Origin: Chloroflexota bacterium
GTDB taxonomy: Bacteria > Chloroflexota > Anaerolineae > UBA4142
Length of the DNA stretch: 63,004 nt
Direction: 5' to 3'
Assembly: GCA_016865935.1 (NCBI GenBank)
Contig: VGOB01000002.1
Location: forward strand, 1 to 63,004
Shown here: positions 1,774-61,934 of the stretch, in pieces
Numbering within the stretch: the first letter of the stretch is position 1
Layout of the letters: each line of letters starts with the position of its first letter
Translations under genes and position numbers: made by a program
Notes under the pieces: generated by a model
The model's input: the letters and a program-made list of their open reading frames with translations, nothing else
Database searches by the model: none
Told to the model about the DNA's origin: nothing

Positions 1774-1833
1774 AGGTTTCAGGTTTCAAGTTGCCTGTTT
1801 CAAGTTGAAACCTGAAACCTGTAACCTGAAACT
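1774..1833. repeat. Inverted heptamer array (AGGTTTC / GAAACCT)
   Basis: aggtttc-aggtttc-aag...gaaacct-gaaacct-gtaacct-gaaact. Confidence 0.8.
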
Positions 1834-21019: not shown

Positions 21020-21100
21020 TCAAAAATGCCAAATGTGCCAAAAGAGCCAAACGTGCCAAAAACGATTTGGCAAATTTGGCAAGTTTGGCAGATTTTGAGG
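21020..21100. repeat. Inverted nonamer array (GCCAAA / TTTGGC)
   Basis: gccaaa units at 9-nt spacing followed by tttggc units; similar array at 29884-29980. Confidence 0.75.
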
Positions 21101-21109
21101 AATTGAAAA

Positions 21110-22087
21110 ATGGGAAACATACTCATTATCGCAGAAGAACGCGAAGGGACTCTGCGCAAAGTTTCGTACGAACTCGTGACCGTCGCGAACGAAATCGCCA
21201 AGGGCTTGGGCGGTGCGGTCGAAGCGTTTGTGATCGGCAACAACGTCGGCGCGTGCGCGGAAGCGCTGGCGAAAACGGGCGTCGCGAAAGTGTACTGCGC
21301 CGATTCGCCCGCGCTCGCGCATTTCGCGCCGGAAGTTTTCGCGGCAACGCTCGCCGACGCGATTCGCAAAGCCGCGCCGTCGGTCGTGCTGATGCCGGCG
21401 ACCGGCTTGGGCAAGGAACTCGGCGCGCAAGTCGCGGCAAAATTGGATTGGGGCGTCGTGACCGACTGCATCACTTTTCAAGTCGAAGGCGGCGCGCTGA
21501 TCTTCAAGCGACCGGTCTACGCGGGCAAGGCAATGGCGACGATCAAAGCGAAAACGTTGCCGGTGATCGCTTCTTTCCGTCCGAACATTTTCCCGCCCGC
21601 GCCGGCAGAATCAGCCGCCGCGCCAATCGAAAAAGTCGAGGTCGCGGCGATCACACCGCGCGCACAAGTGATCGAGAAGGTGAAGAAGGAAGCGGTGGAC
21701 GTTGATCTCGCCGAAGCAAAGGTCGTCGTCTCCGGCGGACGCGGCGCGAAAGACGCGAACGGCTTCGTCCAGATTCGCGAGATCGCCAAGATGCTGGGCG
21801 CGGCAGTCGGCGCGTCGCGCGCGGCGGTGGACGCGGGCTGGATTGATTACAGCACCCAGGTTGGGCAGACCGGCAAGACCGTCGCGCCGCAACTGTACAT
21901 CGCGCTTGGAATTTCCGGCGCGATTCAGCACCTCGCCGGAATGTCGTCGTCCAAGGTGATCGTCGCGGTCAACAAAGACCCGGACGCGCCGATCTTCCAA
22001 GCCGCGGATTATGGCATCGTCGCGGATATGTTCGAGGTGATGCCGGTGCTGAAGGAAGAATTGAAAAAAGTGTTGGCGGAAAAGTGA
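21110..22087 (+). CDS. etfA: Electron transfer flavoprotein alpha subunit
   Basis: VVSGGRG, GASRAAVDAGW, QVGQTGKTVAP, GISGAIQHLAGM. Confidence 0.96.
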   Translation: MGNILIIAEEREGTLRKVSYELVTVANEIAKGLGGAVEAFVIGNNVGACAEALAKTGVAKVYCADSPALAHFAPEVFAATLADAIRKAAPSVVLMPATGLGKELGAQVAAKLDWGVVTDCITFQVEGGALIFKRPVYAGKAMATIKAKTLPVIASFRPNIFPPAPAESAAAPIEKVEVAAITPRAQVIEKVKKEAVDVDLAEAKVVVSGGRGAKDANGFVQIREIAKMLGAAVGASRAAVDAGWIDYSTQVGQTGKTVAPQLYIALGISGAIQHLAGMSSSKVIVAVNKDPDAPIFQAADYGIVADMFEVMPVLKEELKKVLAEK

Positions 22088-22147
22088 CCCCCACCCTACC
22101 CTCCCCCGTTCGCTCAGCGAACGGGGGAGGGTTTGGGTAGGGGTGGG
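22088..22147. repeat. CCCTCCCCC/GGGGGAGGG palindromic element (may also act as terminator)
   Basis: cccaccctaccctcccccgttcgct-c-agcgaacgggggagggtttgggtaggggtggg. Confidence 0.65.
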
Positions 22148-22155
22148 AGTTGACG

Positions 22156-22473
22156 ATGGCAAACGATCGTTTTGAAAACGTGACGGCAATCAAAAAAGCG
22201 AATGTCTATTTCGACGGCAAGGTGACCAGCCGGACGATTTTGTTCGCGGACGGATCGCGCAAGACGTTGGGCGTGATGCTCCCCGGCGATTACGAATTCA
22301 GCACCGGCGCGCCGGAGGTGATGGAAGTTCTCGGCGGCGAGATGATGGTGTTGTTGCCGGGTAAACCGGAATGGCAGACGTTCAAGGTGGGCGATAGTTT
22401 CAACGTCCCGGCGAACGCGTCGTTCAAATTGCAGATCGCGGTGGTGGCGGATTATTGTTGTTCGTACGAGTGA
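22156..22473 (+). CDS. ppnP: Pyrimidine/purine nucleoside phosphorylase (DUF1255)
   Basis: [42 protein letters not shown]. Confidence 0.9.
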
Positions 22474-22480
22474 ACGACGG

Positions 22481-22640
22481 TTGGATCACGAAAGCCGCGA
22501 AATAACGCGATAACCGCGAAACGCGAAAGGGTATATTTTCTTTCGCGGTTTTCGTCCCTTTCGCGAGTTTCGCGTTCCGAACTTTTCGCGGCTTTTGCGC
22601 CTTTCGTGGATTTCGTGTTCCAAACGGTTTCGTGTTCCAA
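22481..22640. repeat. Left ~100-bp imperfect palindromic repeat plus extra half-copies flanking the GxxExxY gene
   Basis: 22481-22580 matches 23111-23210 at 90/100 positions (manual count); TTTCG(C/T)GTTCCAA ends recur at ~22583-22623 and ~22627-22640. Confidence 0.9.
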
Positions 22641-22662
22641 TGTTTTTGCGATGGAGGAACCT

Positions 22663-23109
22663 ATGCCACAACCATCCAAACACAACTTCGAGCCGCTGTC
22701 GTACAAAGTGATTGGCGCGTGTATTGACGTTCAGCGGCAATTGGGGACGCATTGCATGGAAGTGGACTATCAACGCGCGCTCGAAATCGCGCTGCCCAAG
22801 TACGGCGTGCAGTTCGAGCGCGAAGTTGAAATCCCGATTACGTACGACGGCGTGACGGTGACCAAGCGCCGCGTGGATTTCGTGTGCTGGGATGAACGCG
22901 ATCGCTTGCTTCTGGAAACCAAAGCCGCGCAAGCCATTCGCCCAGACGACGTCGAGGGGAGTTTGCTCTACGTGACGAAAGGAAACGAGAGACTCATCTT
23001 GCTCGTCAATCTGGGCGAGAAACCCTTGCGCCCGCGTCGCTTTGTGAACACACCCGAATGTGAACGCGAGACCCGCGAGATGATTCAGAGTATGCAAGCC
23101 GCGAAGTAG
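22663..23109 (+). CDS. GxxExxY protein (PD-(D/E)XK nuclease-like family)
   Basis: GGAGG RBS; LSYKVIGACIDVQRQLGTHCMEVDYQRAL...REVEIPITY...RVDFV...LLETKA...LLVNLG. Confidence 0.85.
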   Translation: MPQPSKHNFEPLSYKVIGACIDVQRQLGTHCMEVDYQRALEIALPKYGVQFEREVEIPITYDGVTVTKRRVDFVCWDERDRLLLETKAAQAIRPDDVEGSLLYVTKGNERLILLVNLGEKPLRPRRFVNTPECERETREMIQSMQAAK

Positions 23110-23110
23110 T

Positions 23111-23210
23111 TTGGAACACGAAAACCGCGAAACATCGCGATAACCGCGAAACGCGAAAGGGTACGTTTTCTTTCGCGGCTTTCGTCTCTTTCGTGAGTTT
23201 CGCGTTCCAA
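23111..23210. repeat. Right ~100-bp repeat flanking the GxxExxY gene
   Basis: TTGGAACACGAAA...TTTCGCGTTCCAA terminal inverted ends; direct repeat of 22481-22580. Confidence 0.9.
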
Positions 23211-23217
23211 GGATTTC

Positions 23218-23775
23218 ATGTTCCAAACCCCCGCCTACCTCGCGCGCGGCACCGCGCGCCAACAACGCGCCTACCGCGCGCTCCAATCACTTGGCATCTT
23301 TCGCGTCTTGCGTGCGTACACGCCCGTTCTCGCCGGGACGATTCCACTTGGCGTTGACATTCGCGGCAGCGACCTCGACATCATTTGCCACGCGCGCGAT
23401 CTCGACGCGTTCGCGCGCGCGGTGACCGACGCGTTCAGCGCGCGTCCGGGTTTTCGCCTCGCGCGCGTGACGATCAAGCGCATTCCATCGCTCATCGCGA
23501 ATTTCGATCACGCCGGATTTCCGATTGAAATTTTCGGGCAGCCGCAACCGGTGACGGAGCAAAACGCGTACCGGCATCTGATTGTGGAAGCACGTTTGCT
23601 GAAAATCGGCGGGGAACGCGCGCGCCGCGCGATTCGCCAAATGAAAAACGCCGGACTCAAAACCGAGCCGGCGTTTGCGCGCTATTTTGGAATCGCGGGC
23701 GATCCGTACGAGGAATTATTGCGCTTGTCGCGTCTGAGCGTACGAGAATTGAAGGAACTTTTTGCTGACGGCTGA
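23218..23775 (+). CDS. DUF4269 domain protein (nucleotidyltransferase-like GSDLD motif)
   Basis: YLARGTARQQRAY, PVLAGTIPLGVDIRGSDLDIIC, IEIFGQ, GLKTEPAFA...GDPYEELL. Confidence 0.82.
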   Translation: MFQTPAYLARGTARQQRAYRALQSLGIFRVLRAYTPVLAGTIPLGVDIRGSDLDIICHARDLDAFARAVTDAFSARPGFRLARVTIKRIPSLIANFDHAGFPIEIFGQPQPVTEQNAYRHLIVEARLLKIGGERARRAIRQMKNAGLKTEPAFARYFGIAGDPYEELLRLSRLSVRELKELFADG

Positions 23776-23809
23776 TCGCTGACCGCTGGTGTTGTGCTGT
23801 GGTCGTCGG

Positions 23810-24250
23810 TCAACGGTCATCGGTCGCCTGTTTGAGCAACTCCACCAACCCATCCGGATACAACGACGCGACGCCGCGTTCGAACTCGCGCAGAGATTTC
23901 CACACCGCGCGCCCGCGGGTGCCATTTTCGTCAATGAGGAATTCATCGCGCGCGTAGAACGCCGGATCAACGAACGCGGCATCGTGTATCCACACGATTT
24001 CGTGCCCCAGTTTGCCATTGCGCACAAAAAGATTTTCTGTCACCTGGAGCAAACGGACGTCTCTGATTTCTGCGCCAAGTTCTTCGCGCATCTCGCGGCG
24101 CAACGTGTCGATCACGCGTTCGCCAAATTCCACGCCGCCACCCGGCGGACGATAAAACGTTTCGCGCTTGACCGAATCGTACCATTCATTCACCAAAATT
24201 TCGTCGTCGCGCCGAAACACGGCAAGCGCGATCACGCGGATTTTTTCCAT
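23810..24250 (-). CDS. NUDIX hydrolase
   Basis: Nudix box PGGGVEFGERVIDTLRREMREELG. Confidence 0.9.
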   Translation of the reverse strand: MEKIRVIALAVFRRDDEILVNEWYDSVKRETFYRPPGGGVEFGERVIDTLRREMREELGAEIRDVRLLQVTENLFVRNGKLGHEIVWIHDAAFVDPAFYARDEFLIDENGTRGRAVWKSLREFERGVASLYPDGLVELLKQATDDR

Positions 24251-25075
24251 TTACGCCCTTTCGCGGCTTTCGTTTTCTTTCGTGGATTTCGCGTTCCAAA
24301 CTTCTTCCCGATACGCGCCCCACATTCGCTCCGGCAACAACGCGCCAAGCGCGACCATCACTTGACGCGCGGCACCCGCGTCGCGTTCATCGCGCGCAAG
24401 ATCACGCGGCACGCGCAGCAGAAACGGCGCGCCGAAATTTACCGTCAGCACGCCATCGTCCTCGAAAATTCCCGCAGGCAAAATCGGAATGTGATCGCGC
24501 GTGAGCAAGAGCAAAAACAACCCCGCACCACGCGGCGGCTGACGCAACGCAAATCCTGCGCCCGTGTGTCCCTCCGGCGCAATCCCCACCAACTCCGGAT
24601 TGTCGCCGCGCGTCAACGCGAGCGCGCCGCGAATGGCTGGCGCACCGGCGCCGCGAAATTCTTCCAAGCCCAGCGCGGGCGGCAAACGAATCGTCCCGTA
24701 CGCCTTGCCGATTTGTCCAAAGAACCAGCGTGTCAACGGCTGTTTGATCCATTTGCGGAATCCGCGCGGATACCACCATTCGCGCGCCATCGCGAAATGA
24801 ATCTCGCGCGGATCGCGCGCGCGCCGCGCGGCAATCGCCGTCACCAGCGCGGCGACGGTCCACCACGCGCCTAACCCAGGTCGGTCGTAATGATTGATCG
24901 TCAAAATGAAAGGCGAAGCGGGGGGAATATTTTCCGGATGCAAGACGCGCGGCGGAGGATGCGCGCCACGGAGGAGCAACGCGCCGTCACGACTCAGCGA
25001 GGACCGAATGCCAAGCCCGACGCGCAACAGCGGAAGCAACAAGCGGAGCGAATAGGCGTAACGCGGCGCGATCAT
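24251..25075 (-). CDS. PlsC-like acyltransferase
   Basis: ENIP..SPFILTINHY, IAPEG, IPILPAGI, VNFGAPF motifs of the glycerolipid acyltransferase family. Confidence 0.7.
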   Translation of the reverse strand: MIAPRYAYSLRLLLPLLRVGLGIRSSLSRDGALLLRGAHPPPRVLHPENIPPASPFILTINHYDRPGLGAWWTVAALVTAIAARRARDPREIHFAMAREWWYPRGFRKWIKQPLTRWFFGQIGKAYGTIRLPPALGLEEFRGAGAPAIRGALALTRGDNPELVGIAPEGHTGAGFALRQPPRGAGLFLLLLTRDHIPILPAGIFEDDGVLTVNFGAPFLLRVPRDLARDERDAGAARQVMVALGALLPERMWGAYREEVWNAKSTKENESRERA

Positions 25076-29883: not shown

Positions 29884-29974
29884 TTGACAAATACCCAAAT
29901 CTGCCAAACTTGCCAAACGCGCCAAAATCGGATTTGGCGTCTTTGGCTCATTTGGCTATTTTGGCAAGTTTGGC

Positions 29975-30904
29975 TCATTTGATCAGCGGCGTTTTGCTGA
30001 GACTGGGAATTTTGCGCCGCGCGCTCGCGCTGTCTTTCCACATCGGGCGAAAGATGTACCACTGCTCGGGATGCGCGCGGATGAACGCTTCCATTCGCCG
30101 CGCGATTTCCTGCATCGTCATCTGCAAATCGCGATGCCGACTGCCGGAACGTTCGATAACGATCGGCGGCGTGACATCCACGACGATGTGTCCATCGAGT
30201 TGAACGTGCGCGTGCCCGACGACGATCGGCGCGCCGGTGAGCAGCGCGAGTTGCGCGGGGCCGGCGGGAAAATCCGTTTCGGTGGCGAAGAAATTCACCG
30301 GCACCGTCGTAATATCGAAATGATGTGTCACGCCGAAATCGAGCAGGAAGGTGGTCATCTCGTTACGCTTGAGCGCTTCGATGATTTTGCGCGGCGCGCT
30401 TTCGTACGGATAGAGGAAAACTTTTTTATCGCGGCGGATGCGCGTCAGGAGATCCATCAATTGCGGCGGGCGCAGCGTTTCGCCGACGAGTGTAAAGGGC
30501 GCGTAGCGATGCGCGAGCAACGCGCTGGGCAAATCCATATTGCCAAAATGCGCGCTGACGACGATCGCGCCTTTGCCGCGCGCTAACGCTTGCTCGAAAT
30601 ACTCGCCGTGCTGAATCGTGATCCGCGCTTCGAGATCGCGCAAGGACATCGAGGGATAGAGCATCACATCGCGCAAGAGGCGCGCGAAATTTTGAAACGC
30701 GCGTTGCGTGACGCGTCCCACCGCCGGATCGTTTGGCGATTTGCCGAGTACGTGCGCGAAATTTTCGCGCGCGACGCGGCGGCGGAGCGGCATCAGATAA
30801 TACGCGCCCGTGCCCATCCATTCGGCGGCGGCGAGACTGAGGCGGGGCGGGGCAAAGCCAACGCAGAACATACCGATCCGCCAAATCCAGTACAGCGCGA
30901 TCAC
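29975..30904 (-). CDS. Lip_A_acyltrans family acyltransferase, PatA-like (second paralog)
   Basis: GKGAIVVSAHFGNMD, VNFFA...FPAGPAQLAL, IRAHPEQWYIFRPMW. Confidence 0.85.
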   Translation of the reverse strand: MIALYWIWRIGMFCVGFAPPRLSLAAAEWMGTGAYYLMPLRRRVARENFAHVLGKSPNDPAVGRVTQRAFQNFARLLRDVMLYPSMSLRDLEARITIQHGEYFEQALARGKGAIVVSAHFGNMDLPSALLAHRYAPFTLVGETLRPPQLMDLLTRIRRDKKVFLYPYESAPRKIIEALKRNEMTTFLLDFGVTHHFDITTVPVNFFATETDFPAGPAQLALLTGAPIVVGHAHVQLDGHIVVDVTPPIVIERSGSRHRDLQMTMQEIARRMEAFIRAHPEQWYIFRPMWKDSASARRKIPSLSKTPLIK

Positions 30905-36501: not shown

Positions 36502-37794
36502 ATGGCACAAAATATGAAAATAGACGTTCACCACGTCACGCGCGTCGAAGGGCACGGCAACATCACGGTCAACGCGAAGAATGGCGTGCTGGAAGAATGT
36601 CGGCTCGACATCGTGGAAACGCCGCGCTTTTTTGAAGCGATGTTGCGTGGACGCCCGTACACCGACGCGAGCCACATCACGTCGCGCATCTGCGGCATCT
36701 GCGCGGTCGGTCACGCGACCGCGTCACTGCGCGCATCCGAAACCGCGCTCGGCGTCGAATTGTCCGAGCAAGCGTGGTTGCTGCGTAAATTGATTTTTCA
36801 CGGCGAGATCCTTGACAGCCACGTCTTGCACACGTATATGCTCGTCGCGCCCGACTTTTTCAAAGTGGGCAGCGTGATTCCGCTCGCAGGCATCGCGCCC
36901 GACGCGGTTTTGCGCGCGCTGCGAATGAAAAAACTCGCGGGCGATTTGTGCGCGATGGTCGGCGGGCGGCACACGCATCCGATCGCGATGAGCGTCGGCG
37001 GGTTCACGCATCTGCCGACCGTTGACGAACTCAAGGCGATGCGCGCGCGCTTGATCGACGCGCGCAAGGATATGGACGAGACGGTCGCGCTCTTCAAGAC
37101 CTTGCCGTGGCCCCAATTCACGCGCGAGACGGAATACGTCGCGCTGAGCAAGCCCGACGAGTACGCGTTCATTGACGGCACGATTACGACGACCGACGGC
37201 GGCAGGTATCACTTGAACGATTACCGCAAAGTGACAAACGAAAAATGCGTCGAACATTCGTCGTCCAAGCACACCGCACACAAACGCGAATCGTATATGG
37301 TCGGCGCGCTCGCGCGGTTCAACGTCAACTCCAAGCAGTTGCATCCCAAAGCGCAAGAAGCTGCGGACGCGCTGGGGCTGAAAGCGGTTTGCACGAATCC
37401 GTACCTGAACAGCGCGGCGCAAGTCGTCGAAATGGTGCACAGCATTGAAGAGTCCGTCAAGATTTGCGACGAACTGATCGCGCGCGGGATCAAGAAAGAA
37501 GACGCGTACAAATTTGCGGGCAAGGGCGGCACGGGCGTCGGCGCGTGCGAAGTGCCGCGCGGGCTCTTGTTCCACAACTATGAAATCGGCGACGATGGCA
37601 AGATCGTCAACGCGAACTGCATCATTCCGACGGGGCAAAATCTCGCGAACATCGAAGCGGATATGCGCGCGCTCGTCCCACAAATTCTCGATCAAGGCCA
37701 GGAAAAAGTGACGTTCGCGCTGGAAATGCTCGTGCGCGCGTACGATCCCTGCATTTCGTGCTCGGTGCATTTTCTGGATGTCAAGTTTGTATAG
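36502..37794 (+). CDS. hydA: Group 3b [NiFe]-hydrogenase large (alpha) subunit
   Basis: TRVEGHG; L1 RICGICAVGH; EVPRG; L2 RAYDPCISCSVH followed by a cleavable FLDVKFV tail. Confidence 0.95.
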   Translation: MAQNMKIDVHHVTRVEGHGNITVNAKNGVLEECRLDIVETPRFFEAMLRGRPYTDASHITSRICGICAVGHATASLRASETALGVELSEQAWLLRKLIFHGEILDSHVLHTYMLVAPDFFKVGSVIPLAGIAPDAVLRALRMKKLAGDLCAMVGGRHTHPIAMSVGGFTHLPTVDELKAMRARLIDARKDMDETVALFKTLPWPQFTRETEYVALSKPDEYAFIDGTITTTDGGRYHLNDYRKVTNEKCVEHSSSKHTAHKRESYMVGALARFNVNSKQLHPKAQEAADALGLKAVCTNPYLNSAAQVVEMVHSIEESVKICDELIARGIKKEDAYKFAGKGGTGVGACEVPRGLLFHNYEIGDDGKIVNANCIIPTGQNLANIEADMRALVPQILDQGQEKVTFALEMLVRAYDPCISCSVHFLDVKFV

Positions 37795-37882
37795 TTGGAT
37801 AGCTTGATAGTTGGGTAGTTGGATGGTTGGCTAGTTCGACTGCAAAACTATCCAACTATGTAACTATGCAACTACCCGACTA
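37790..37882. repeat. Inverted octamer array (TAGTTGGA / TCCAACTA)
   Basis: tagttggatagcttgatagttgggtagttgg...aactatccaactatgtaactatgcaacta. Confidence 0.75.
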
Positions 37883-38499
37883 TGAAACCCATCCTGGTTC
37901 TCGGTCTCGGTAATCCGTTGCAAGGCGATGATGGTGTTGGTTGCCGCGTCGCGCAGGAGTTGGAACGTGTCATTGCGAGCCGTCCTGAGCAGAGCGTAGC
38001 GGAGTCGAAGGAAGCGGCGAAGCAATCTCCAACTCGCGAATCGGAGATTGCTTCGTCGCAGCCCTTCGACTCCGCAGCACAAAACGCTGCTCCGCTCAGG
38101 GTGCTCCTCGCAATGACACGATGGCAAGATGTCGAGGTGATGGATGGCGGGACGCCCGGCGTCGGCTTGCTGAATGTGATCGAAAGGCGCGCGCGCGTGA
38201 TCATCATTGACGCGGCAGAGATGAGCATCGCGCCGGGAGCATTTCGGCGATTCACGCCGGAGCAAGTCGCGCTGACCGGTTCCGCGCAGCGATTCTCGCT
38301 GCATCGTTCCGGCGTCGCGGACGCGCTCGCGCTGGCGCGCGAATTGAAAATCGAACTGCCCGAAATCATTTTCTTCGGCGTTCAACCGGCAAGCGTCGAA
38401 TGGCGCGACGCACTCAGTCCGGCAGTGCAGGGCGCGGTGCCGCGCGTGATCGAAGCGATACTCAACGAATTGAATCAAAGGATGAAATCAGAAGGATGA
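37882..38499 (+). CDS. Hydrogenase maturation protease (HyaD/HycI family) with ~50-aa insertion
   Basis: LVLGLGNPLQGDDGVG, DGGT, IIIDAA, SLH, GVQP. Confidence 0.9.
   Translation: MKPILVLGLGNPLQGDDGVGCRVAQELERVIASRPEQSVAESKEAAKQSPTRESEIASSQPFDSAAQNAAPLRVLLAMTRWQDVEVMDGGTPGVGLLNVIERRARVIIIDAAEMSIAPGAFRRFTPEQVALTGSAQRFSLHRSGVADALALARELKIELPEIIFFGVQPASVEWRDALSPAVQGAVPRVIEAILNELNQRMKSEG
37966..38120. repeat. In-frame palindromic element inside the protease gene
   Basis: Perfect 14-bp inverted ends CGTGTCATTGCGAG/CTCGCAATGACACG; internal GAAGCAATCTCC/GGAGATTGCTTC as in 56520-56603. Confidence 0.85.
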
Positions 38500-38561
38500 A
38501 GGATGAAAAATTTATTCATCCCTCCGCCTTCATCCTTCATCCTTGATTTTAGGAGTTCACT

Positions 38562-41827: not shown

Positions 41828-42595
41828 GTGCGAATTCCCATCATCGCGGGAAACTGGAAAATGAACAAAACGATTGCGGAGGCGCGCGAGTTGGTCGGCG
41901 CGCTGCGCGATGAGTTGACGCGCGTCGCCGCCGATGGCAAGGTGCAGATCGTTTTGTGTCCGCCGTTCATCGCGCTTGCCGAAGTTGCCGCGCGCGTCAA
42001 GGAGACGCCAATCAAAGTCGGCGCGCAAAATTTATTTTGGGAAGTCAAAGGCGCGTACACCGGCGAAATCGCGCCGCCGATGCTGAACGAAGTGTGCGAT
42101 TACGTCATCATCGGTCATTCCGAACGCCGCCAGTATTTCGGCGAGACGGATGAAGGCGTCAACAAGAAAACGCGCGTCGCGCTCGCGCATCACCTGACGC
42201 CGATTGTGTGCGTCGGCGAGAATTTGCAACAGAACGAAGCGGGGCAGACGGCGCAGATCGTCGGCGCGCAAGTGCGCGCCGCGTTCACGGAGATCGCGCG
42301 CGACGACGCGCGGCGTTGCGTCATCGCGTACGAGCCGGTCTGGGCGATCGGCACCGGCAAAGCCGCGAGCGGCGCGGGCGCGAACGCGGTGATCGGCTTG
42401 ACGATTCGCGGCGCGCTGGCGGACTTGTACGACGAAGCGACCGCGCAAACGATCCGCGTGCAGTACGGCGGCAGTGTCACACCGAAAAACGTCGCGGAAT
42501 TTTTCGCGCAACCGGAAATTGACGGCGCGCTCGTCGGCGGCGCAAGTTTGCTCGCGGCGGATTTCATCGCGATTTGTCAGGCGGCAAGGAAATAG
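41828..42595 (+). CDS. tpiA: Triosephosphate isomerase
   Basis: GGAGG RBS + GTG; AGNWKMN, IGHSERR, AYEPVWAIGTG, YGGSV, DGALVGGASL. Confidence 0.97.
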   Translation: MRIPIIAGNWKMNKTIAEARELVGALRDELTRVAADGKVQIVLCPPFIALAEVAARVKETPIKVGAQNLFWEVKGAYTGEIAPPMLNEVCDYVIIGHSERRQYFGETDEGVNKKTRVALAHHLTPIVCVGENLQQNEAGQTAQIVGAQVRAAFTEIARDDARRCVIAYEPVWAIGTGKAASGAGANAVIGLTIRGALADLYDEATAQTIRVQYGGSVTPKNVAEFFAQPEIDGALVGGASLLAADFIAICQAARK

Positions 42596-42686
42596 TTCAA
42601 GGTTTGCAGGTTCAAGGTTCAAAGTTAAACTTGGAACCTTGAACCTTGAACCTTGAACCTTGAACTTTGAACCTTGAACCCTGAAC
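42595..42686. repeat. Inverted heptamer array (GTTCAAG / CTTGAAC)
   Basis: gttcaaggtt...gaaccttgaaccttgaaccttgaac. Confidence 0.85.
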
Positions 42687-42691
42687 CCCCA

Positions 42692-54714: not shown

Positions 54715-54781
54715 TGGGAATGACCGACGACCGATGACCGATGACGGTGGACCTTGTCGGTCGTCCGTCTTCGGTCATCCG

Positions 54782-61851: not shown

Positions 61852-61934
61852 AGTCAGAAGGCGGAAGGATGAAGGATGAATCTTTTTTCTCTTTCATCCT
61901 TCATCCTTCATCCCTCATCTTTCGGAGTTTTGAA

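What the first reader, a model, noticed from the sequence alone, without database searches (positions are those of the whole stretch)
22481..23228. GxxExxY nuclease-family gene enclosed by ~100-bp self-complementary direct repeats: candidate REP/RAYT-like selfish system
Seen: two 100-bp copies (90/100 identical) bracket the gene. Each has TTGGA(A/T)CACGAAA...TTTCGCGTTCC(A/G)A inverted ends and ~9-nt periodic CGCGAAA units. Stacked half-copies lie at 22583-22640, another end unit supplies the ATG of the DUF4269 gene (23218), and a dispersed half-copy lies at 24258-24300. Known: GxxExxY proteins are PD-(D/E)XK-like with no assigned function, and RAYT transposases are similarly flanked by the REPs they spread. 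Inference: the nuclease recognises or mobilises these repeats, or they form a structured RNA partner. Best candidate for an undescribed system in this window.
Basis: partly seen in the sequence, partly recalled or inferred. Interest (0 to 1): 0.78.

Follow-up and report, generated by a model that had tools for sequence, protein, structure and literature searches.

The report
Nuclease gene nested in hairpin repeats
A small nuclease gene of unknown function sits between copies of a hairpin-forming repeat that is also scattered, without the gene, across this bacterium's genome, and the same gene-plus-repeat pairing recurs throughout its phylum, which points to an undescribed partnership between a nuclease and its own repeats.

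Summary
Two ~100-nt palindromes built of phased CGCGAAA words (88-91% alike) bracket a PF13366 (GxxExxY, PD-(D/E)XK) gene at 22663-23109. About 20 further copies or half-copies lie elsewhere in the genome.

The pairing is specific and conserved. All 20 close homologues in 41 related genomes keep the words beside them (19 with arrays, 1 remnant), as do 61 of 64 Chloroflexota loci. A protein clade of 13 carries CGCGAAG words instead.

The other seven PF13366 paralogues of this genome lack these words, but each has arms built of a different word. Similar arms enclose PF05635 and GIY-YIG genes.

At one shared site two sister genomes carry arm-gene-arm, while this genome carries only the hairpin. 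Other genera have etfA-DUF4269 with nothing inserted.

The genome's Y1 (RAYT-like) genes have other repeats, so this is not a REP/RAYT member, although the layout resembles one.

That the nuclease recognises and propagates or homes into its hairpins is inference (about 0.45). An RNA-level, IVS-like role is the main rival.

I found no publication describing this. The scan's own notes report similar GxxExxY cassettes on much other DNA.

The parts
22481..22580 (.). Upstream full hairpin (copy A). The left arm is four to five CGCGAAA words, then a short loop, then the right arm. It starts 8 nt after the ppnP stop codon.
   Evidence: (D3, I7)
22584..22640 (.). Extra right arm (22584-22623) plus one more end unit (22626-22640), stacked between copy A and the gene.
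   Evidence: D1, D5. A related population in run X11 lacks 27 nt (three 9-nt units) here (table 4).
22663..23109 (+). GxxExxY / PDDEXK_3 nuclease-fold gene. The likely start is the ATG at 22663, behind GGAGG. An in-frame ATG at 22651 is the alternative start. The stop codon is at 23107-23109.
   Evidence: The catalytic-type residues E37, D76 and E89 are invariant and K91 is kept in at least 90% of a 40-sequence alignment (numbering from 22651). The AF2 model has pLDDT 91.4 and a PD-(D/E)XK fold.
23111..23210 (.). Downstream full hairpin (copy B). It starts 2 nt after the gene's stop codon.
23211..23226 (.). End-unit-like 16-mer that holds the ATG (23218) of DUF4269.
   Evidence: D5, 93%; comparison with G003
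24258..24300 (.). Solo right arm (half-copy). On the minus strand it encodes the last ~15 codons of the 274-aa ORF at 24251-25075, directly ahead of the NUDIX gene start.
   Evidence: (D1, I1). Homologues of the 274-aa ORF in other genera align only up to residues 259-268.

Best explanation
The locus is one member of a nuclease-hairpin partnership.

Shown:
- A small PD-(D/E)XK nuclease-fold gene (a distinct Chloroflexota subfamily of GxxExxY/PF13366) lives inside or between copies of a hairpin repeat whose arms are arrays of one 7-nt word (CGCGAAA) phased about every 9 nt.
- The same hairpin exists without the gene at about 20 other places in this genome.
- The gene-repeat pairing recurs across the phylum, the word varies with the protein clade, and one orthologous site holds either the bare hairpin or the hairpin with the gene.

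Inferred:
- The protein recognises the word arrays of its own hairpin family, probably on DNA that has folded into a hairpin or cruciform, and cuts there.
- Repair or strand transfer after the cut then either copies gene-less hairpins to new intergenic sites (as RAYTs are thought to do for REPINs) or copies the gene into the loop of an empty hairpin (homing).
- Slippage among the phased words changes arm length in steps of 9 nt.
For: (1) The association is specific and strong.
- In 41 related genomes there are 20 close homologues (at least 61% identity) in 18 genomes. 19 have at least 3 words within 300 nt, and one 5'-truncated gene keeps only a terminal unit.
- In one genome (G039) the only repeat hit lies 45 nt from the gene, which is a pseudogene there.
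- 61 of 64 Chloroflexota loci have at least 3 words within 260 nt.
- Word density is 21.5 per kb near the gene against 1.59 per kb farther out in the same loci.

(2) The word is conserved beyond mere complementarity, and it tracks the protein.
- A clade of 13 proteins (support 100/100) carries only CGCGAAG/CACGAAG words. 41 other proteins carry CGCGAAA words.
- The tree needs 5 label changes, against 15.5 in shuffles (as low in 0 of 200).
- Within this one genome, all eight PF13366 genes have arms, with five or six different words (CGCGAAA, ACGGACA-type, CACAGAA, CACGAAT, CGGATGA).

(3) The gene-less and gene-bearing forms are alleles of one thing. G000:C5 has left arm-loop-right arm. G003:C60 and G002:C43 have left arm-gene-right arm between the same flanking genes.

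(4) Turnover is visible.
- Other genera have etfA-DUF4269 without any insert.
- Hairpins present in G000 are missing at the matching places of G003 (C16, C17, C222).
- The 64 loci fall into 49 different flank contexts.
- A third hairpin (G000:C29) is 87-89% identical to the two gene-flanking copies. That is as close as those two are to each other (90%). Other copies are 67-81%.

(5) The protein looks like a working nuclease. E37, D76 and E89 are invariant and K91 is kept in at least 90% of sequences, and the PD-(D/E)XK model is confident.
Against: - No activity, cut site, target-site duplication or transposition intermediate was seen. No contig of four metagenome runs bridges an empty site at this locus.
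- There are only one to three gene copies per genome although many hairpins are available as targets. This argues against frequent homing.
- The two G003 copies are both diverged from the window protein (90% and 75% identity to it), so they are not a recent copy of each other.
- Copies within the genome are old: most are 67-81% alike. There is no recent burst.
- Arms of the same design enclose PF05635 four-helix-bundle genes, which are not nucleases, and a GIY-YIG gene. The arms may therefore serve a function common to all cargo rather than being the substrate of this enzyme.
- The word-protein match could reflect co-inheritance of a unit rather than recognition. The tree test does not separate the two.
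- Nine genomes have repeat hits but no subfamily gene, one of them (G005) with 27 hits.
Confidence: 0.45

Rival explanations
1. IVS-like RNA-level cassette. The arms matter in RNA. When the element is transcribed within a host operon, the left and right arms pair into a long stem that RNase III cuts. This releases the cargo mRNA and separates the host messages, as with ORF-bearing intervening sequences of 23S rRNA. The nuclease would then be selfish or defence cargo whose function has nothing to do with the arms.
For: - Arm-gene-arm is the common layout.
- Sister cassettes in this genome carry PF05635, the family of the IVS-encoded S23p protein.
- Coxiella IVS is an ORF enclosed by terminal inverted repeats and cut by RNase III (PMC4990558, abstract and passages).
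- Only 20-40 nt separate the arm from the start codon, and no consensus promoter was found. The arm is therefore probably transcribed with the gene.
- Hairpins sit 0-40 nt from neighbouring ORF ends, some of them between genes on the same strand.
Against: - G-U pairing shows no strand bias. The sense strand folds better in 22 of 40 hairpins and the antisense strand in 18, with 134 against 127 G-U pairs.
- Pairing alone does not explain why the word sequence itself is conserved across the phylum.
- In the window the gene lies between two complete hairpins, not inside one stem.
- No RNA data are available.
Confidence: 0.2
2. Host-serving structural repeats. The hairpins are terminators, mRNA stabilisers, insulators or recombination-prone gap fillers. 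They are kept for the host, and small mobile genes tend to land or survive inside them. The gene-repeat link would be co-inheritance or site preference, not enzymology.
For: - A crude screen finds 444 hairpin-like phased-word loci of many word families in this genome, most without any cognate gene in the assembly.
- The hairpin centres score as terminator-like.
- Hairpins lie right behind stop codons or between convergent genes.
- Several lie at breaks of gene order between G000 and G003.
- Arms have been absorbed into coding sequence.
Against: - A general host element would not pair one word with one protein clade over phylum-scale distances. Nor would each of eight paralogues have its own word.
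- G039's single repeat hit lies beside its single (pseudo)gene.
Confidence: 0.15
3. RNA partner of the nuclease. The repeat transcript is a guide, an antitoxin or a regulator of the nuclease, as in type III toxin-antitoxin pairs where a repeat RNA neutralises an endoribonuclease.
For: A repeat array lies directly upstream of a nuclease-fold gene in most loci.
Against: - The arrays are inverted, not tandem direct repeats.
- They also occur on the 3' side and at about 20 gene-less places.
- There is no Rfam match and no strand bias.
- The same design surrounds non-nuclease cargo.
Confidence: 0.05

Closest known systems
REPIN / REP elements with their RAYT genes (Bertels & Rainey 2011, PMC3116915, abstract read; Di Nocera 2013, PMC3733652, passages read)
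   Same: - A gene present in one or a few copies per genome is flanked by the repeat.
- The repeat is dispersed as gene-less hairpin doublets in extragenic space.
- Several gene/repeat pairs coexist in one genome.
   Different: - The enzyme has a PD-(D/E)XK fold, not an HUH Y1 transposase fold.
- The repeats are ~100-nt palindromes of phased 7-nt words, not 20-40-nt GTAG- or CGTC-tagged REPs.
- The gene often sits inside the hairpin loop.
- This genome's own Y1 genes carry no CGCGAAA arms; two of them sit beside unrelated repeats.
ORF-bearing intervening sequences of 23S rRNA (Coxiella IVS, PMC4990558, abstract and passages read)
   Same: - A small ORF is enclosed by terminal inverted repeats that form a long stem.
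- Distribution is sporadic.
- Sister cassettes in this genome carry the same ORF family, PF05635.
   Different: - The element lies between protein-coding genes, not in rRNA.
- The cargo here is a nuclease-fold protein.
- The arms are arrays of words.
- Gene-less copies are dispersed.
- RNase III processing is untested.
GxxExxY protein family (Pfam PF13366 PDDEXK_3; NCBIfam TIGR04256)
   Same: The window protein scores above both curated cut-offs. The family is listed with function 'Unknown' in the PD-(D/E)XK survey (PMC3424549, table row read).
   Different: It is a divergent, tightly conserved Chloroflexota subfamily. It scores 75 bits, against 71-142 for the seven paralogues, and is at most 41% identical to other PF13366 hits in these genomes. 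I found no repeat context for the family in print.
Free-standing homing endonuclease genes (recalled from general knowledge, not looked up here)
   Same: A small nuclease gene is present or absent at an otherwise identical site. Nuclease folds known from homing enzymes (PD-(D/E)XK, GIY-YIG) occur as cargo.
   Different: The presumed target would be a dispersed hairpin repeat, not a conserved gene. Most available hairpins are empty. Non-nuclease cargo also exists.
MITEs and their parent insertion sequences
   Same: A gene-bearing form and many short gene-less palindromic forms share the same ends.
   Different: There is no transposase family and no target-site duplication was seen. The arms are internally periodic and vary in unit number.

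Membership tests
REP/RAYT (REPtron, REPIN-RAYT) | The associated gene is an HUH Y1 tyrosine transposase (PF01797). | tested here: not met
   The gene is PF13366 only. The genome's three PF01797 matches lie on C186, C237 and C229.
REP/RAYT (REPtron, REPIN-RAYT) | The RAYT gene is flanked by the same repeat that is dispersed in the genome. | tested here: not met
   0 of the 3 Y1 genes has CGCGAAA words in its flanks. C229 and C237 are flanked by other repeat families.
REP/RAYT (REPtron, REPIN-RAYT) | A gene in one or a few copies is flanked by hairpin repeats that also occur gene-less in extragenic space (the layout only). | tested here: met
23S rRNA intervening sequence with ORF | The element is inserted in a 23S rRNA helix. 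| tested here: not met
   It lies between ppnP and DUF4269. Rfam finds no rRNA in 21900-24500.
23S rRNA intervening sequence with ORF | Terminal inverted repeats enclose the ORF. | tested here: inconclusive
   This holds for relatives (G003:C60, G002:C43, G011:C105, G018, G008). In the window the gene lies between two complete hairpins.
23S rRNA intervening sequence with ORF | The element is excised from the transcript by RNase III. | not testable with these tools
   No RNA run is listed.
PF13366 / TIGR04256 GxxExxY | The profile match is above the curated cut-off. | tested here: met
   75 bits against a cut-off of 22; 71.2 bits against a cut-off of 35.
PD-(D/E)XK nuclease superfamily | A core alpha-beta fold with a conserved D...(D/E)xK motif. 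| tested here: met
   D76 and E89 are invariant and K91 is kept in at least 90% of sequences. The model has pLDDT 91.4. The best structural matches are all PD-(D/E)XK proteins, but only at Z 7.7 or lower.
MITE / insertion sequence | Target-site duplication and a transposase-bearing parent element. | tested here: not met
   No duplication was seen at the ends of the copies or at the filled, solo and empty comparisons that I inspected by eye. No transposase gene lies within the element.
Type III toxin-antitoxin (repeat RNA plus endoribonuclease) | Tandem direct repeats lie upstream of the toxin gene only. | tested here: not met
   The arrays are inverted, lie on both sides of the gene and are dispersed gene-less.
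Integron gene cassette (attC) | An IntI integrase and an attI site with cassette arrays. | not tested
   I did not search for IntI.

The most novel reading that the evidence does not exclude
GxxExxY proteins are the enzymes of an undescribed class of mobile DNA. Each subfamily recognises arrays of its own 7-nt word in hairpin or cruciform DNA. It either spreads gene-less hairpins or homes into their loops. The hairpins in turn act as joints at which neighbouring genes are inserted, lost and reshuffled. PF05635 and GIY-YIG cassettes would be parallel branches of the same element class.
Probability: 0.35. Interest if true: 0.88.

Novelty: new variant of a known kind. Interest (0 to 1): 0.72.

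Why it matters
- PF13366/GxxExxY is a large family found in many phyla with no assigned function. A conserved, word-specific pairing with hairpin repeats gives it a testable role.
- If the nuclease acts on its hairpins, this would be a second, mechanistically unrelated route to REPIN-like repeat populations, using a PD-(D/E)XK enzyme instead of an HUH enzyme.
- It could explain hundreds of intergenic palindromes in Chloroflexota genomes. A crude screen finds 444 hairpin-like loci in this genome alone.
- It would link these repeats to the long-unexplained ORF-bearing intervening sequences of rRNA.
- The hairpins also coincide with gene-order differences between sister species and have donated coding sequence: a start codon, a C-terminal tail, a signal peptide and a lysine-rich N-terminus. 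They therefore matter for genome evolution and annotation even if the enzyme turns out to be unrelated.

Tried and rejected
- REP/RAYT membership is rejected. Y1 genes exist in the genome but carry no CGCGAAA arms; two of them sit beside other repeats.
- 'These repeats flank GxxExxY genes in general' is rejected. 0 of 7 paralogues has CGCGAAA clusters within 1 kb.
- RNA evidence: no RNA holder is listed among 12 runs.
- Reads: I laid contigs of 4 DNA runs on 21600-24400.
  - No contig joins across an empty site.
  - A 'goes back 665' joint (23204 to 22540) in two runs has only 34 letters on its shorter side and 4 unmatched letters between. It may come from another repeat copy or organism, so I draw nothing from it.
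- G-U strand-bias test for RNA-level selection: no bias.
- Rfam: no family matches the repeats. There are only sub-threshold hits on the etfA terminator palindrome at 22085-22145.
- Consensus promoter scan: 0 sites in 21900-24400.
- PDB by sequence: nothing at E of 1 or below that is meaningful.
- Structure search: only generic PD-(D/E)XK neighbours, at Foldseek E 2.7e-3 or weaker and Z 7.7 or lower. No specific functional relative can be named.
- Homodimer prediction: 'no answer'.
- Target-site duplications: none seen by eye.
- Concerted evolution of the two flanking copies: not indicated. The two copies are 90% and 87% alike within a genome, and 89% and 87% alike between orthologues.
- Literature: searches for GxxExxY, PDDEXK_3/PF13366, TIGR04256, REPIN/RAYT with nuclease and Chloroflexi, PF05635/S23p, PDDEXK with inverted repeats, and IVS with inverted repeats gave no paper linking this family to repeats. 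Subscription journals and supplements were not searched.
- Synteny breaks at hairpins have no matched control set of hairpin-free gaps, so I report them as observations only.
Full report
**What is in the window**

Positions 22481-22587 and 23111-23217 are a 107-nt direct repeat, 88% identical. blastn gives 90.8% over 98 nt. Each copy is a palindrome with TTGGA...TCCAA-type ends. Its arms are four to five CGCGAAA-type words spaced about 9 nt apart.

As single-stranded DNA the two copies fold at -25.5 and -26.1 kcal/mol (z -3.3 and -3.5; 0 of 200 shuffles fold as well). The best structure is a small share of the ensemble, as expected if the phased words allow several registers.

Between copy A and the gene lie an extra right arm (22584-22623) and one more end unit (22626-22640). 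A solo right arm lies at 24258-24300.

The enclosed ORF is PF13366 PDDEXK_3 (E 7.9e-21) and TIGR04256 GxxExxY (71 bits). Its likely start is the ATG at 22663, behind GGAGG. The neighbouring genes are etfA, ppnP, DUF4269, a NUDIX gene and a 274-aa ORF.

**The repeat is dispersed and is not tied to the genome's other GxxExxY genes or to RAYTs**

The genome (4.8 Mb, 322 contigs, 93.8% complete) holds 34 clusters of at least three such words. About 21 of them are recognisable full or half copies on 17 contigs. Most lie 0-40 nt from the end of a neighbouring ORF.

The genome has eight PF13366 genes. Only the window's gene has CGCGAAA clusters within 1 kb (1 of 8).

Three Y1-transposase matches exist. 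None has these words in its flanks. Two of them are flanked by other repeat families and look like ordinary REP/RAYT pairs.

**The pairing with this particular subfamily is conserved**

A protein search over 41 related genomes gives a bimodal result. There are 20 hits of at least 61% identity in 18 genomes, and about 85 paralogues of at most 41% identity.

I compared these places with the repeat hits and inspected the rest.
- 14 genes have a repeat hit within 100 nt, and one more has a hit at 266 nt.
- G003:C60, G011:C105, G002:C43 and G040:C36 have clear arms on inspection.
- G031:C1, a 5'-truncated gene, keeps only a terminal unit.

In total, 19 of 20 genes have at least 3 words within 300 nt. 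In G039 the only repeat hit of the genome lies 45 nt from the gene, which carries two in-frame stops there.

A collection scan found 63 more loci. All but two carry Chloroflexota labels, and the two exceptions are probably misbinned. With the window included, 61 of 64 loci have at least 3 words within 260 nt. The misses are one gene at a contig start and two gene fragments.

Word density is 676 words in 31.5 kb near the gene (21.5 per kb), against 441 in 278 kb farther out (1.59 per kb).

The usual layout is a left arm or a full hairpin upstream of the gene and a right arm downstream.

**The word varies with the protein**

The loci that lacked CGCGAAA carry CGCGAAG/CACGAAG words. Three long-branch proteins are exceptions: L082 (CGCGAAG and CGCGAAC words), L085 (CGCGAAC) and L086 (CGCGGAA).

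On a maximum-likelihood tree of 58 full-length proteins, a clade of 13 (support 100/100) holds only the AAG type, and 41 others hold the AAA type. The tree needs five label changes, against 15.5 in shuffles (as low in 0 of 200). As the tool warns, this shows clustering, not co-evolution.

Within this one genome the point is sharper. All eight PF13366 genes have flanking inverted arms of phased words, and the word differs between genes:
- CGCGAAA on C2;
- ACGGACA-type on C71 and C45;
- CACAGAA on C156;
- CACGAAT on the two C105 genes;
- CGGATGA on C23.

Gene-less clusters exist for three of these word families: 10 for CACAGAA, 4 to 15 for ACGGACA-type, and 1 for CACGAAT, which lies at the C105 locus itself.

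**Filled, solo and empty sites**

Site next to DUF4269:
- G003 (same genus) has hairpin-gene-hairpin-DUF4269, 81% identical over 1292 nt to the window. Upstream it has 3.1 kb of other DNA where the window has ppnP.
- In nine loci from other genera, DUF4269 has neither the gene nor a word cluster. In three of them etfA ends within 150 nt of DUF4269.

Second site:
- G000:C5:37653-37740 is a bare hairpin.
- Between the same flanking genes, G003:C60 has left arm, a 137-aa subfamily gene (75% identical to the window protein) and right arm. G002:C43 has the same arrangement.

Other hairpins differ between G000 and G003.
- The hairpin on C63 is conserved.
- Those on C16 and C17 are missing in G003.
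- At C222 a solo left arm stands where G003 has 3.8 kb.
- At C3 the right arm stays with the downstream gene in both genomes, while the upstream neighbour differs.

I have no control set of hairpin-free gaps, so the link with gene-order breaks is an observation only.

The 64 loci fall into 49 flank contexts.

The flanking copies of G000 and G003 plus G000:C29 form an 85-90% group. Other G000 copies are 67-81% alike.

**A wider class**

A crude screen for phased 6-mers present on both strands gives 444 hairpin-like loci in this genome, in many word families. Ten of them lie in the window.

Arm pairs 300-700 nt apart enclose the following cargo:
- PF05635 '23S rRNA intervening sequence protein' genes (6 of 6 tested);
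- a GIY-YIG gene;
- the PF13366 genes;
- some ordinary genes.

The genome has 21 PF05635 matches.

**The protein**

In 40 subfamily sequences E37, D76 and E89 are invariant and K91 is kept in at least 90% (numbering from 22651). These residues fit the helix-E and D...ExK pattern of PD-(D/E)XK nucleases.

The AlphaFold model is confident (pLDDT 91.4, pTM 0.81). Its neighbours are all of that superfamily: AF1548, TT1808, the nuclease domains of DrdV and BpuSI, Cas4 and Hjc. They match only at Z 7.7 or lower and Foldseek E 2.7e-3 or weaker. PDB holds no relative findable by sequence.

**DNA or RNA?**

- The sense strand folds better in 22 of 40 hairpins and the antisense strand in 18, with 134 against 127 G-U pairs. 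This gives no sign of selection on one transcript strand.
- There is no Rfam match to the repeats and no consensus promoter.
- The hairpin centres score as terminator-like.
- No RNA run is listed.
- A related population lacks 27 nt, three units, in the stacked arm.

**Reading**

Shown:
- a specific, conserved pairing of this nuclease-fold gene with hairpins of one word;
- gene-bearing and gene-less forms at one site;
- turnover between sister species.

Inferred: the protein recognises its word arrays and cuts, so that hairpins are copied or the gene homes into them (0.45).

Rivals:
- an IVS-like RNA-level stem (0.2);
- host-serving structural repeats with co-inherited cargo (0.15);
- an RNA partner of the nuclease (0.05).

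**Known systems and novelty**

The layout resembles REPIN/RAYT (PMC3116915, abstract) but fails that family's defining enzyme test. It resembles ORF-bearing IVS (PMC4990558, abstract and passages) but is not in rRNA. PF13366 is listed as 'Unknown' in the PD-(D/E)XK survey (PMC3424549, table row).

Seven literature searches found nothing that links the family to repeats.

The scan's own earlier notes report repeat-bracketed GxxExxY cassettes on much other DNA: 606 notes hold the two words 'GxxExxY' and 'cassette'. They name the same two analogies. I reached the association before reading them, and I tested the parts cited above on this genome.

Noticed in passing
G000:C229:1-900 and G000:C237:4100-5000 (not in the window): Two Y1-transposase-like genes are flanked by arrays of other short palindromic repeats. 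These are probably ordinary REP/RAYT pairs and are unrelated to the CGCGAAA family.
   Followed up: partly
window 1776-1832, 21027-21090, 29903-29975, 37792-37884, 38478-38542, 42595-42687, 54722-54741, 61893-61913: Eight more hairpin-like loci built of other phased words (GTTTCA, GCCAAA, TAGTTG, AAGGAT, TTGAAC, GACCGA, TTCATC) lie in the window. The one at 21027-21090 fills the etfB-etfA gap.
   Followed up: no
window 24251-24300 (minus strand): The last ~15 codons and the stop codon of the 274-aa ORF are encoded by the solo right arm. Homologues in other genera stop aligning at residues 259-268.
   Followed up: partly
G000:C99:10480-10560 and G000:C52:20420-20520: Arms have been taken into coding sequence. 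On C99 a right arm encodes a signal-peptide-like hydrophobic N-terminus. On C52 six words encode a lysine-rich N-terminus.
   Followed up: no
G000:C197:4707-4795 (locus L104 1008-1096): A different ~80-nt palindromic, MITE-like element is absent from the matching site of G003 but has at least 26 copies elsewhere in G003.
   Followed up: no
G000:C56:20480-21640: Two identical full hairpins lie 921 nt apart, each behind a duplicated 3' end of a gene. This is a tandem duplication that includes the hairpin, not a cassette.
   Followed up: no
window 22085-22145: A long, perfect G+C-rich palindrome lies right after etfA (17-bp core stem, -21.7 kcal/mol, z -9.2). It is probably the etfA terminator and marks the left edge of the variable slot that holds ppnP here and 3.1 kb of other DNA in G003.
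   Followed up: partly
L024 4227-4857 (G015:C169) and L129 (G011:C105), downstream of the cassette: A 173-aa gene lies next to the GxxExxY cassette in two genera. I did not run it against Pfam; it reminded me of DinB-family proteins. In G015 it is itself bracketed by word arms.
   Followed up: no
G000:C105:4000-7100: Two tandem modules each hold a small gene (which looks to me like a HicA-type gene, not tested), a PF13366 gene and CACGAAT-word palindromes.
   Followed up: no
L071 2900-2990 and L082/L085 downstream flanks: The terminal unit of the arm is repeated in tandem three to eight times in some genomes. This suggests repeated events at the element end.
   Followed up: no
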